DNA of 64,000 bases from Azolla caroliniana (lineage: Eukaryota > Plantae > Polypodiophyta): contig JBHGNT010000004.1 in the NCBI GenBank assembly GCA_043228905.1, positions 2,108,001 through 2,172,000 on the forward strand. Reading direction: 5' to 3'. The translations under genes and the position numbers were made by a program. This document shows, in pieces, positions 7,206 to 10,181 of this stretch (position 1 is its first letter; every line of letters starts with the position of its first letter). Under the pieces are notes generated by a model, which saw nothing but the letters and a program-made list of their open reading frames with translations, was not told where the DNA came from and made no database searches.

Positions 7206-7811
7206 TTCCTGCTTGAAAACGCACATACAATTATGTTAATTGATGCCTGTGTGAAAAGCAAACGGGTACCACAAGTACTTTGATTGGTGTGCAACCACCA
7301 ATCAATACTCTCTGATTGAGGAGCTTTGCTAGAAGTGACAATGTAGAATGCCAACTATGTTTCAAGATCTACATCCATCCATAATTACAGTTGCATACCT
7401 TCAATTCTTATTCATCGTGAGATGATAGTCATTGAAGACACTTGATGGAAAAGGAAGAGATCAATAGTCACTTGTAAATTTCTAGTCTAACCCCATAAAC
7501 GCCAACCAACCCAAGGTTCTTGCTCAATTCATATAGGTGAAGGACCCTACATCAATGTTATACTTTGTAGTTGTTATCAAATAAACCCATAATTGGGCGG
7601 TATGCATAATAATTGTCGCACTTCAACAAAATCTAAAAACTCTTTGAGAATTGAGCCTCGACTACATCTCTCACCAGTGTTGCCTTTTGACGGCCAACAT
7701 TGCCTGTCATGAGAACGGTATTCCAAAATTTTTGCCCGTCAAATTGACGGTTTACCAAAAAAAATGCCCTTCAAAAAGTAAATACATCGAATATTTGTAC
7801 GAAACAATATA

Positions 7812-8310
7812 TTATACCCTTCTATCCTTTGCATCTTTCCAAATTTCATATACACGATCCCATTGTATCTCTTCAATGTGTGGCCCATTCAATGAGACTT
7901 GCATTAAATCATCTAAATGCTCTATATTCAATCGATTTCTTTTCATCTCTTTGATGAGATTTTGCCAATGAGACTTGCATTAAATCATCTAAATGCTCTA
8001 TATTCAATCGATTTCTTTTCATCTCTTTGATGAGATTTTGCTTAGAAAACCCTCTCTCACACGAAACTGTGCTAGACGGAATAACCAAAGTAGCTTGCCA
8101 TAATTTCATCAAATGAGGGAAACTATCTTGCCAATCCTTCATTTTGCAAAACATACGCCAAGCTTCATGCATAGTATAGCCTTCACAATTTAAACGTAAA
8201 GTGTCAACAAACCTATAGAGTTCCATTTCACAAGCCTTTGCATCATGTAAAATTTGAGGACATGCATTGACATCAACATTTGGTTGTAAGTGAGAAATCA
8301 AAATTCCCAA
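7812..8310 (-). pseudogene. hAT transposase C-terminal dimerisation-domain remnant, frameshifted by a 76-bp tandem duplication
   Basis: FPHLMKLWQATLVIPSSTVSCERGFSKQNLIK..RNRL is the hATC dimerisation motif. Removing one 76-bp copy (7890-7965 or 7966-8041) restores ...MQVSLNGPHIEEIQWDRVYEIWKDAKDRRV* (stop at 7812-7814). The N-terminal part is absent. Confidence 0.88.
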
Positions 8311-8971
8311 CCATGTCTTTGCTTTACTTTTGCCCTTAAAGAGGAGAGCAATACTAGTTTTTATGGACTAGTAAAAGAATTTGGTGGTATATCTAGTAAA
8401 AGCCATTGTAAATTTTCGTAGAGGGAAATATATAGGGTAAGTTGGACTTCGTCTAGATGCAGAATGCCAACCTAGACACACCACAACATAATGTTACTAC
8501 GTAGCATGTTTTTCCAATAAAACATGTACGAGACAATGATGCCATAAATGCAAGGATAAGTCCAAAGATTAATTGGTTTGGTATTTAACACTATACAATA
8601 AAGTTAGATATGCAAGCCATATCCTATAGAGTTTTTGCTTTGGTCCTAGAGGAGTTCGCGACATGTTAACATGTTAACATCAACTGGCAACATGAACTAA
8701 CATGATGAAACATGATTTTATTATTATTAACTAGCCTCGCCGATGCATCCGCCACTCCATACACGATTCTATGTGCACATATGTATATGTGACACCTCGA
8801 AATATATGCATAGATATCTATCTATCAACCTAACCTACACTTAGATGATGATGTATGGACATACACATATACATATATTATACAAGATGCATGTTGATGT
8901 ATGTCTCGATGCATCAATGGGTGAGGACCTTGGCAATTTACTACTCCTCTGAGCTTCGATTGTAGGACAAG

Positions 8972-9436
8972 ATGCAGATCTTCGTGAAAACCTTAACTGG
9001 TAAGACCATCACTTTAGAGGTAGAATCCTCTGATACCATCGACAATGTCAAGGCCAAGATCCAAGATAAGGAAGGGATAGCCCCGGATCAGCAGAGATTG
9101 ATCTTCGCCGGGAAGCAGCTCGAGGATGGGCGAACCCTAGCAGATTACAACATCCAGAAGGAATCCACTCTCCATCTCGTGTTGCGTCTACGCGGTGGGG
9201 CTAAGAAAAGGAAGAAGAAGACATACACAAAGCCCAAGAAGATCAAGCACAAGAAGAAGAAAGTGAAGCTCTCTGTCTTGCAGTACTACAAGGTGGACGA
9301 CTCAGGGAAGGTTCAGAGACTCCGTAAGGAATGCCCTAATGCTGATTGTGGTGCTGGTACCTTCATGGCCAGCCATTTTGATCGCCATTATTGTGGCAAG
9401 TGTGGGCTTACTTATGTCTATCAACAGAAGGCATAA
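8972..9436 (+). CDS. RPS27A: Ubiquitin-40S ribosomal protein S27a fusion (inside the hAT element)
   Basis: 76-aa ubiquitin ending LRLRGG, followed by [18 protein letters not shown]... with an intact C4 zinc finger (ECPNADC...YCGKC). Single uninterrupted ORF. Confidence 0.97.
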
Positions 9437-10181
9437 GCTTCATATTTAGGTTTGGACTTTCTATGATGGTGTAGGTTGCATGCATGAAATTAGAGTTTTT
9501 TGTGTCTGGTTTTTCTTGCGGACTAAATGTATCCTGTTAGTTTTTCTAAGTATTCAATTACTAGTGTTCTTTGCATTCCAGAGAGAGAGAGAGAGAGAGA
9601 GAGCTACCTTAGATGGGTGAGTAGGACTGCTGCAGGTGTTGCTGAAAGCCTGAATCTATGAGTAGACTGTAGCAGGAAACGAGCAACAAGCTTCGAGTAG
9701 GGATAGTTATTAGTGAGCACTGAGTTGCGAGCTTCCAGCAAGGTGCAGGGCTGAGGGAGCAACGAAGAAACATGGGAAAAGGGGAGAAATGGGGGGAGAT
9801 GGGGGAAAATGGGGGAAAGGGAAAGGAAGGTTTTAGATGGGGAAACGGGGCGGGGGAATTGGGAAGAAAAGATTCATAATTTAGAGTCTAGACTCTATTA
9901 GTTTTTTTACCTTTTCGTTACACACATATGTGAGTCTTTCAAATTCATACACTCCCAATGCAACTTGAACAATTTGTTCCTACTACCTAGGACTATAATA
10001 CTATTGTATTGGTCTTAGTAAAATTTGACGGTATTAGGAAATTTTAAGCCTTCATTTTTACGTTTTCATAAAACATATGCCCGTCAAGATTGACGGTTTC
10101 ATTTTTAAATTAACCTTCATATATGGTTAAATTTGCCAAAAACGTTCAAAACGGCCGTCAAAAGGCAACACTGTCTCTCAC

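What the first reader, a model, noticed from the sequence alone, without database searches (positions are those of the whole stretch)
7667..10181. Pack-hAT transposon carrying a complete ubiquitin-RPS27a gene
Seen: perfect 21-bp TIRs and an exact 8-bp TSD (the hAT signature) bound a 2499-bp unit. It holds a hAT transposase 3' remnant on the - strand and a full-length UBQ-RPS27a ORF on the + strand. The ORF has an upstream acceptor-like TTGTAG 6 nt before the ATG and no poly(A) tract, which points to DNA-level capture rather than retroposition. Established: Pack-type capture is best documented for MULEs, CACTA elements and Helitrons and usually involves gene fragments. Inference: this is a young hAT element (TIRs and TSD unmutated), possibly still trans-mobilisable, that moves a whole essential ribosomal-protein/ubiquitin gene.
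Basis: partly seen in the sequence, partly recalled or inferred. Interest (0 to 1): 0.8.

Follow-up and report, generated by a model that had tools for sequence, protein, structure and literature searches.

The report
Fern transposon ferrying ribosomal protein genes
A small cut-and-paste transposon, likely in a fern, carries a complete ubiquitin-ribosomal protein coding sequence at a site that is empty in related samples and likely brought it in from a sister species; its relatives carry other host sequences at the same internal spot, one of them likely copied from spliced messenger RNA.

Summary
Real. A 2499-bp non-autonomous hAT (21/21 TIR, 8-bp TSD) carries 1145 bp of host DNA with a whole ubiquitin-RPS27a ORF. 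The site is empty in 3 of 4 DNA runs laid, and cargo contigs sit at 3-9 times single-copy depth: a young insertion of a probably multicopy Pack-hAT. (1) The cargo is foreign to its chromosome. It differs by 7.9% from organism A's own single-copy locus but by 0.8% from that of organism C, whose flanks differ from the window by 8.5%. One run holds both haplotypes, so introgression is the likely route. (2) Sister elements carry other cargo (RPL21, an RRM gene, unnamed DNA) starting at the same (CT)n/(GT)n tract, antisense, 143-460 nt past a stop codon. The RPL21 cargo lacks a conserved intron, so capture is not DNA-only. The cargo looks like a passenger: ubiquitin P37A, no cargo alleles in one RNA run, RPL21 copies with a stop. 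All of this rests on short-read contigs. Verdict: new variant of Pack-TYPE capture.

The parts
7667..7674 (.). Left target-site duplication TCTCTCAC
   Evidence: single copy at the empty site, table 5
7675..7695 (.). TIR at the transposase 3' end, 21 bp, followed by subterminal TTGACGG motifs (7687, 7736, 7744)
7812..8328 (-). hAT transposase 3' remnant (residues 601-746 of the full-length relative P0269, 98% and 92% identical), frame broken by a tandem duplication
7890..8041 (.). Perfect 76-bp tandem duplication (7890-7965, 7966-8041)
8326..8432 (-). Remnants of the hAT leader/intron upstream of the transposase ATG (8326-8395, 8400-8432; 97% to L012). 8326-8328 is the 3-bp microhomology of the internal deletion that removed residues 1-600
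8433..8971 (+). Captured native 5' flank of RPS27a (promoter or 5' UTR intron, unresolved; GG/GTAAGT at 8435-8442, TTGTAG at 8960-8965)
   Evidence: single-copy contigs with unique upstream DNA start matching at 8432-8453 in organisms A, C, D (table 8; tables 7, 8)
8972..9436 (+). Complete ubiquitin-RPS27a ORF, 154 aa, with P37A
9437..9579 (+). Captured 3' UTR, 143 nt, ending about 36 nt short of the native RNA contig's end; no poly(A)
9580..9603 (-). (CT)12 tract on the transposase strand: the shared capture site, right behind a donor-like AAG/GTAG (GT at 9607-9606)
9604..10173 (-). hAT 5' arm (TIR 10153-10173, subterminal motifs, likely promoter and non-coding first exon); 3-9% substitutions against 7 sister arms
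10174..10181 (.). Right target-site duplication

Best explanation
This is a non-autonomous hAT DNA transposon newly inserted at a site that is empty in related samples; it carries a host ubiquitin-RPS27a coding sequence that was likely captured in a sister lineage by a template switch at its (CT)n tract and likely entered this genome through hybridisation. Steps. (1, shown) The family has a (CT)n/(GT)n tract and 87-bp tandem units behind a donor-like site in its leader, and every long 5' arm seen continues there into non-hAT DNA. (2, inferred) A break or stalled fork in that tract leaves a 3' end that pairs by microhomology with the sense strand of a transcribed gene near its 3' UTR and copies it backwards; synthesis then returns to hAT sequence further on, with loss of the hAT DNA in between and no TSD around the cargo. 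The template was genomic or unspliced for RPS27a and spliced for RPL21. (3, shown) An internal deletion removed transposase residues 1-600. (4, inferred from divergence) Capture took place in the C/D lineage; the element multiplied there, crossed into lineage A, and was moved in trans by intact family transposase. (5, inferred) The cargo is a passenger and a possible source of antisense or small RNA, not a working extra gene.
For: TIR and TSD. Empty site in X1, X3, X10, each on an unbroken single-copy contig. Cargo contigs at depth 55-116 against 14.5-17.8 single-copy in X1, 66-102 against 11 in X3, 96 against 20 in X10. A deletion derivative joins 7784 to 8470 at depth 36.6. All 7 of the 21 TIR loci with a long 5' arm continue into non-hAT DNA at the tract; RPL21 in 4 (3 distinct flanks), and hAT sequence returns behind the cargo in L003, L012 and L018. 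RPL21 cargo runs through NKQ/VNTR, whereas P0128 (81 of 85 residues identical over that exon) and 15 other genomic fragments start there behind intron-like residues. Junction microhomologies: (CT)n-GGAATG against the unit's (CT)n-GGTATG; (CTT)n at the RPL21 5' end; AGT at the deletion. Divergence: cargo to A's single-copy locus 27/340, cargo to C's 3/377, flanks window to C 94/1101, window to A 3/1096; Fisher p 2e-9 for cargo against flanks in C. X3 shows C/D-type flank alleles at 11 of 11 sites checked, beside A-type alleles; X1 at 0 of 11. Full-length transposases P0262, P0269, P0272.
Against: Everything outside the window is short-read contigs; both read laying answers say that depth is no copy number, and their tables were cut (3688 and 251 pieces not shown). 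No second RPS27a-carrying copy with its own TSD was seen: 0 of 21 TIR loci hold ubiquitin. The C native locus is one contig over 377 bp, and its orthology to A's locus is assumed. D holds two versions, one with the P37A base, so the order of events is not clean. Two cargos (L001, L011) rest on one contig each with the far end unseen, and joins at microsatellites can be assembly chimeras; L016 and L019 have unmatched TSDs. The antisense bias is 4 of 4, p 0.125, and selection against sense inserts in an intron would give it too. The host species of L001-L021 is unknown. X3 could be a mixed sample.
Confidence: 0.62

Rival explanations
1. Retrocopies and DNA capture are separate events: a LINE inserted processed mRNAs (RPL21) into the microsatellite of the hAT intron, while RPS27a was captured by ordinary DNA gap repair. 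The shared site only reflects a fragile or favoured target, and the antisense bias comes from selection.
For: RPL21 cargo runs from just upstream of the ATG to 185 nt past the stop and ends in a short A run before (AC)n. L012 keeps the transposase start behind its cargo, so sense inserts could be selected against. LINE-like remnants lie in the window at 57422-59575 (name from recall).
Against: No poly(A) and no TSD around any cargo. The RPL21 5' end joins hAT unit sequence through (CTT)n microhomology, and the window's 3' junction shows microhomology to the hAT unit.
Confidence: 0.25
2. No crossing of species lines: the cargo comes from a hidden A-lineage paralog that is collapsed with the transposon copies in the contigs, or was lost.
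For: RNA run X23 shows at least two expressed RPS27a versions (3 and 9 differences in 124 bp), and an 82% paralog exists. Loose-end tables were cut (25 rows not shown).
Against: A paralog older than the A-C split should also differ by about 8% between A and C; the cargo differs by 0.8% from C's single-copy locus. No RNA contig carries cargo alleles at 9322, 9331 or 9388-9511 (contigs show presence, not absence).
Confidence: 0.15
3. The cargo is a functional extra ubiquitin-RPS27a gene kept by selection.
For: ORF intact; 537 bp of native 5' flank retained; of the 24 CDS differences read from the cut table, only P37A changes a residue once linked changes in one codon are read together.
Against: The synonymous bias is what divergence between native orthologs gives. 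P37A is shared by the high-depth cargo contig. No cargo alleles in RNA run X23. RPL21 cargo spread with an internal stop in 4 of 4 copies.
Confidence: 0.08
4. Macrotransposition: two neighbouring hAT insertions fused around the gene (the Catoni/Gisby tandem-insertion model), or an assembly artefact.
For: This is the published model for Pack-TYPE elements, including maize hATs.
Against: No internal TIR copy even at 4 mismatches in 16. The hAT parts on both sides are colinear pieces of one element, and the cargo sits inside its leader. Native loci run on into unique DNA. An exact TSD with a matching empty site is not what a mis-join makes.
Confidence: 0.05

Closest known systems
Pack-TYPE / Pack-hAT elements of maize and rice (Gisby and Catoni 2022, PMC8903248; passages and section 9 seen)
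   Same: Non-autonomous TIR element with host coding DNA inside; Pack-hATs are described.
   Different: Their examples are fragments of 58-280 bp and the model is fusion of tandem insertions. Here whole ORFs sit at one fixed microsatellite inside a colinear element, and one cargo is spliced. 'Fern', 'ubiquitin' and 'ribosomal' do not occur in the main text; the supplements were not read.
Maize Ds2 and Ds-l4 elements with gene fragments (PMC3260210; passages seen)
   Same: hAT derivatives with 8-bp TSD, captured unlinked gene DNA, polymorphic sites, often inserted in repeats.
   Different: 11 of 903 elements carry gene fragments, and retained introns argue there against mRNA capture. Here capture is seen in all 7 long-arm loci and RPL21 lost its intron.
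Multicopy Pack-TIRs of animals: Ssk-FB4, Pack-hAT-N8_XT; gap-filling and FoSTeST models (Tan et al. 2021, PMC8277862; passages seen)
   Same: Near-whole gene captured, multicopy, polymorphic; breakpoints with microhomology; repeats in the element proposed as stall sites.
   Different: Ssk-FB4 is expressed and selected, and that survey discarded intronless captures by design. No cross-species movement of cargo appears in the passages seen.
KAONASHI / Ulp1 in non-TIR MULEs (review PMC13317346; part 2 of 6 and passages seen)
   Same: A host coding unit carried by a plant DNA transposon.
   Different: Ancient and retained as an element gene; here the cargo is recent, varies between subfamilies and decays.

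Membership tests
hAT superfamily | 8-bp target-site duplication | tested here: met
   single copy at the empty site
hAT superfamily | Short terminal inverted repeats with subterminal motifs | tested here: met
   21-bp TIR and TTGACGG motifs near both ends
hAT superfamily | Transposase with the hAT C-terminal dimerisation domain and DDE motifs | tested here: met
   PF05699 in the remnant and in P0001; motif strings present in P0262, P0269, P0272 (their catalytic role is recalled)
hAT superfamily | Mobilisation in trans by an active transposase | tested here: inconclusive
   Full-length relatives and an empty site exist; activity not assayed; host of those proteins unknown
Pack-TYPE / Pack-TIR | Non-TE host sequence between the TIRs, with a donor locus elsewhere | tested here: met
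   single-copy contigs running into unique DNA at the 5' and 3' sides (record 10; records 1, 8)
Pack-TYPE / Pack-TIR | Several copies at different sites | tested here: inconclusive
   Depth 3-9 times single-copy and a deletion derivative, but no second RPS27a copy with its own TSD (0 of 21 loci). RPL21 subfamily: 3 distinct flanks
Pack-TYPE / Pack-TIR | Capture from genomic DNA | tested here: inconclusive
   Likely for RPS27a (537 bp of native 5' flank); not for RPL21 (intron missing)
Tandem-insertion (macrotransposition) origin | Internal TIR remnants or two fused elements around the cargo | tested here: not met
Retrocopy (processed gene), window cargo | Poly(A) tail, TSD around the insert, mRNA-only extent | tested here: not met
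   the native CDS looks intronless (record 19), so intron loss cannot be tested
Retrocopy (processed gene), RPL21 cargo | Precise loss of a conserved intron | tested here: met
   rice RPL21.2 has one intron (PMC4995216 Table 1). The true donor locus was not seen
Horizontal transfer or introgression of a transposon | Element divergence far below host divergence | tested here: met
   3/377 against 94/1101 (C) and 7/583 against 38/552 (closest D pieces)
Horizontal transfer or introgression of a transposon | Tree incongruence against host genes | not testable with these tools
   contig sequences are not returned by read laying; no genome held

The most novel reading that the evidence does not exclude
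A fern hAT family has a built-in capture site: a microsatellite whose broken end primes on the sense strand of highly expressed genes, RNA included, so that a DNA transposon repeatedly takes up whole housekeeping ORFs, and one such element carried a sister species' ubiquitin-RPS27a across a species boundary and is still jumping.
Probability: 0.35. Interest if true: 0.87.

Novelty: new variant of a known kind. Interest (0 to 1): 0.7.

Why it matters
How TIR transposons pick up unlinked genes is still called open in a 2026 review (PMC13317346). This family offers several independent captures at one defined site, with donors, junction microhomologies, both unspliced and spliced cargo, and apparently recent activity, so the template and primer can be read off and tested. 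If the lineage result holds, it is also a plant case of a Pack element moving a nuclear housekeeping ORF between species and then multiplying it. Antisense cargo 92-97% identical to an essential gene makes silencing cross-talk directly testable.

Tried and rejected
No genome is held for the window, so copies could not be listed. No RNA holder was listed. X23 RNA contigs do not cover 8380-8938 and X15 has no cover at 9283-9567: parts without cover, and a filter drops records, so neither is used as proof. X18 proved to be probably DNA. The metagenome TIR scan found no ubiquitin-carrying copy (0 of 21). No Rfam match in 7000-11000. No telo-box, site II or TATA motif (recalled motifs) in 8435-8971, which does not settle promoter against intron. 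Pfam named none of 34 frames from L001, L018 and L020 above its cut-off; the Atlas gave only low-complexity leads for the 257-aa L018 frame. A dN/dS against the donor was not computed: only cut difference tables were available, and the contrast is between orthologs. The lotus hAT paper (PMC9804982, passages) held nothing on capture. Paper searches listed no report of this element, of fern Pack-hATs, or of intronless capture at a fixed site (0 papers); most subscription papers and all supplements were not seen, so this is no proof of absence. The look-up by sequence in earlier findings gave nothing.

Full report
OBSERVATION. The element is as described: 21-of-21 TIRs at 7675-7695 and 10153-10173, TSD TCTCTCAC on both sides, 2499 bp, and the only such structure with an 8-bp repeat among 4 candidates in the window. 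The plus-strand ORF 8972-9436 is a whole ubiquitin-RPS27a and the minus strand holds a hAT dimerisation domain. The host is likely a fern: the only named transposase hit is from Adiantum nelumboides (68%) and the best-identity named RPL21 hits are Adiantum too. No genome is held, so the rest comes from contigs of coded runs and 21 metagenome loci with the exact TIR.

ANATOMY. Full-length transposases of 732-746 aa match the remnant at 92-98%. In transposase direction the element reads: 5' arm (10173-9604) ending in a donor-like AAG/GTAG; (CT)12; cargo in antisense (9579 to about 8433); two remnants of the hAT leader (8432-8400, 8395-8326; 97% to L012, where they lie upstream of the transposase ATG); a deletion joint with 3-bp microhomology that removes residues 1-600; the 3' remnant, broken by a perfect 76-bp duplication; 3' TIR. 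So it is one element with an insert in its leader, not two elements around a gene. It sits 951 bp upstream of the ATG of an RRM gene (PTB-like by recall), inside a high-depth repeat.

AGE AND COPIES. Contigs join 7666 to 10174 with one TSD in X1, X3 and X10, 3 of 4 DNA runs, on unbroken contigs at depth 16.7, 11.1 and 20.4; in X1 the flanks differ from the window at 3 of 1096 bases. The insertion is therefore very young. Cargo contigs nearly identical to the window have depth 55-116 in X1 (single-copy 14.5-17.8), 66-102 in X3 and 96 in X10, that is 3-9 fold. The tool warns that depth is no copy number, and no second copy with its own TSD was seen (0 of 21 loci hold ubiquitin). A derivative joining 7784 to 8470 at depth 36.6 keeps the cargo's 5' part and drops the remnant.

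DONOR AND EXPRESSION. X1 (organism A) also has single-copy contigs that match the cargo less well and run on into unique DNA: 8453-8634 (15 differences in 182), 8734-8891 (12 in 158), 9358-9542 (10 in 185, then 4.3 kb). The RNA run X23 of the same organism carries the same 10 differences and 7 gap letters, so that locus is expressed. At 9080, 9322, 9331 and 9388-9511 all RNA depth has non-cargo bases; one run of contigs shows presence, not absence. The high-depth cargo contig has G at 9080, giving ubiquitin P37A. The 537 bp upstream of the ATG are contiguous in native loci, so this cargo is not a plain mRNA copy; whether they are promoter or intron is open.

THE CARGO IS FOREIGN TO ITS CHROMOSOME. 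Counting substitutions on the contigs that the cut tables list (gaps not counted; patches too diverged to lay are left out, so A's figure is a floor): cargo against A's native 5' flank 27/340 (7.9%); cargo against a single-copy 8.4-kb contig of organism C, which starts matching at the cargo border 8435, 3/377 (0.8%); window flanks against C 94/1101 (8.5%); against D 38/552 (6.9%), with the closest D pieces 7/583 from the cargo (Fisher p 2e-9 and 5e-7). D also has unique DNA before 8432. C and D share flank alleles against A; X3 holds those alleles at 11 of 11 sites checked, beside A-type ones, and X1 at none. X3 is thus a hybrid or a mixed sample. I infer capture in the C/D lineage and passage into A, most simply through hybrids (about 0.7). 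Weak points: one 377-bp contig for C, assumed orthology, and a second D version that carries the P37A base.

A SHARED CAPTURE SITE. Of 21 TIR loci, 7 have the long 5' arm, and all 7 continue into non-hAT DNA right behind the (CT)n/(GT)n tract. Four carry a whole RPL21 ORF with an internal stop, at 3 distinct flanks; L011 carries an RRM gene's 3' part; L018 (and L003, further in) unnamed DNA with a 257-aa frame; L001 unnamed DNA. hAT sequence returns behind the cargo in L003, L012 and L018; L001 and L011 are open-ended single contigs and could be chimeras. All four cargos with a readable frame are antisense (p 0.125), and the three named ones end 143, 185 and 460 nt past their stop codons. The RPL21 cargo reads straight through NKQ/VNTR. 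P0128, 81 of 85 identical over the downstream part, and 15 further genomic fragments among the 23 short hits I picked begin exactly there behind intron-like residues; rice RPL21.2 has one intron (PMC4995216, passages and Table 1). That cargo passed through spliced RNA, either directly or as an earlier retrocopy. No cargo has poly(A) or a TSD. Junctions show microhomology to the 87-bp hAT leader unit.

MECHANISM. Shown: structure, empty site, common junction, intron loss in RPL21, divergence contrast. Inferred: a break or stall in the tract frees a 3' end that pairs with the sense strand of a transcribed gene near its 3' end (displaced DNA strand, pre-mRNA or mRNA), copies it backwards and returns to hAT sequence; transposase in trans then spreads the product. 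The main rival splits this into LINE-made retrocopies plus ordinary DNA gap repair, with orientation set by selection. The cargo is probably a passenger.

COMPARISON. Pack-hATs are known in maize (PMC8903248, passages and section 9; PMC3260210, passages), as fragments taken from DNA. Multicopy whole-gene capture with microhomology is known in animals (PMC8277862, passages), where intronless cases were filtered out. A 2026 review calls the route for unlinked genes undiscovered (PMC13317346, passages and part 2 of 6). Eight searches (listings only, apart from the papers named) showed no report of this element or of a fixed capture site with spliced cargo; supplements and most subscription papers were not seen. 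Earlier scan notes: none on this DNA; two on hAT elements with 28S fragments in animals, not tested here.

VERDICT. Observation confirmed; interpretation partly supported. A true Pack-hAT and a new variant of a known kind, more interesting for its recurrent capture site and its cross-lineage cargo than for moving an essential gene. Interest 0.70.

Noticed in passing
window 6506-6742 (-): First coding exon of an RRM gene (PTB-like by recall); the element lies 951 bp upstream of its ATG and could affect its promoter.
   Followed up: partly
window 7494-7666 and 10174-10300: The target site lies in a very high-depth repeat; many diverged repeat copies also join 7638 to 10174.
   Followed up: partly
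run X3, window 10558-10869: A-type and C/D-type alleles side by side at 11 of 11 sites: hybrid or mixed sample.
   Followed up: partly
window 8517, 9190, 9424, 9448: Places where all X1 depth differs from the window: changes private to this copy or accession.
   Followed up: no
L006, L007, L013, L016, L021: About 1.1-kb deletion derivatives of the same hAT with a 175-bp 5' arm and the transposase 3' end, without named cargo.
   Followed up: partly
L019:232-3613, L005: Near-full-length elements with a long transposase frame and a different leader; TSDs of L019 do not match, so it may be a collapsed contig.
   Followed up: partly
L017:131-1007: Behind the RPL21 cargo lie a PPR fragment and the start of a BED-finger-like frame (name recalled), perhaps a nested element or further cargo.
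   Followed up: partly
L003: Two cargos in series, RPL21 at the first tract and the L018-type cargo at a later (CT)n unit, suggesting sequential captures.
   Followed up: partly
window 14500-19450: Plastid-like pieces (chlL-like, atpB-like by recall) with inverted 12-mers at 14554/19425 and 14574/19405: a rearranged plastid insertion.
   Followed up: no
window 5057-6129 and 11121-11660: Young tandem arrays with units of 233, 117 and 139 bp.
   Followed up: no
window 32170-33423 (-), 38845-40062 (+), 57422-59575 (+): Long frames that look like a prenyltransferase (GGPPS), a PPR protein and LINE remnants (names recalled from translations).
   Followed up: no
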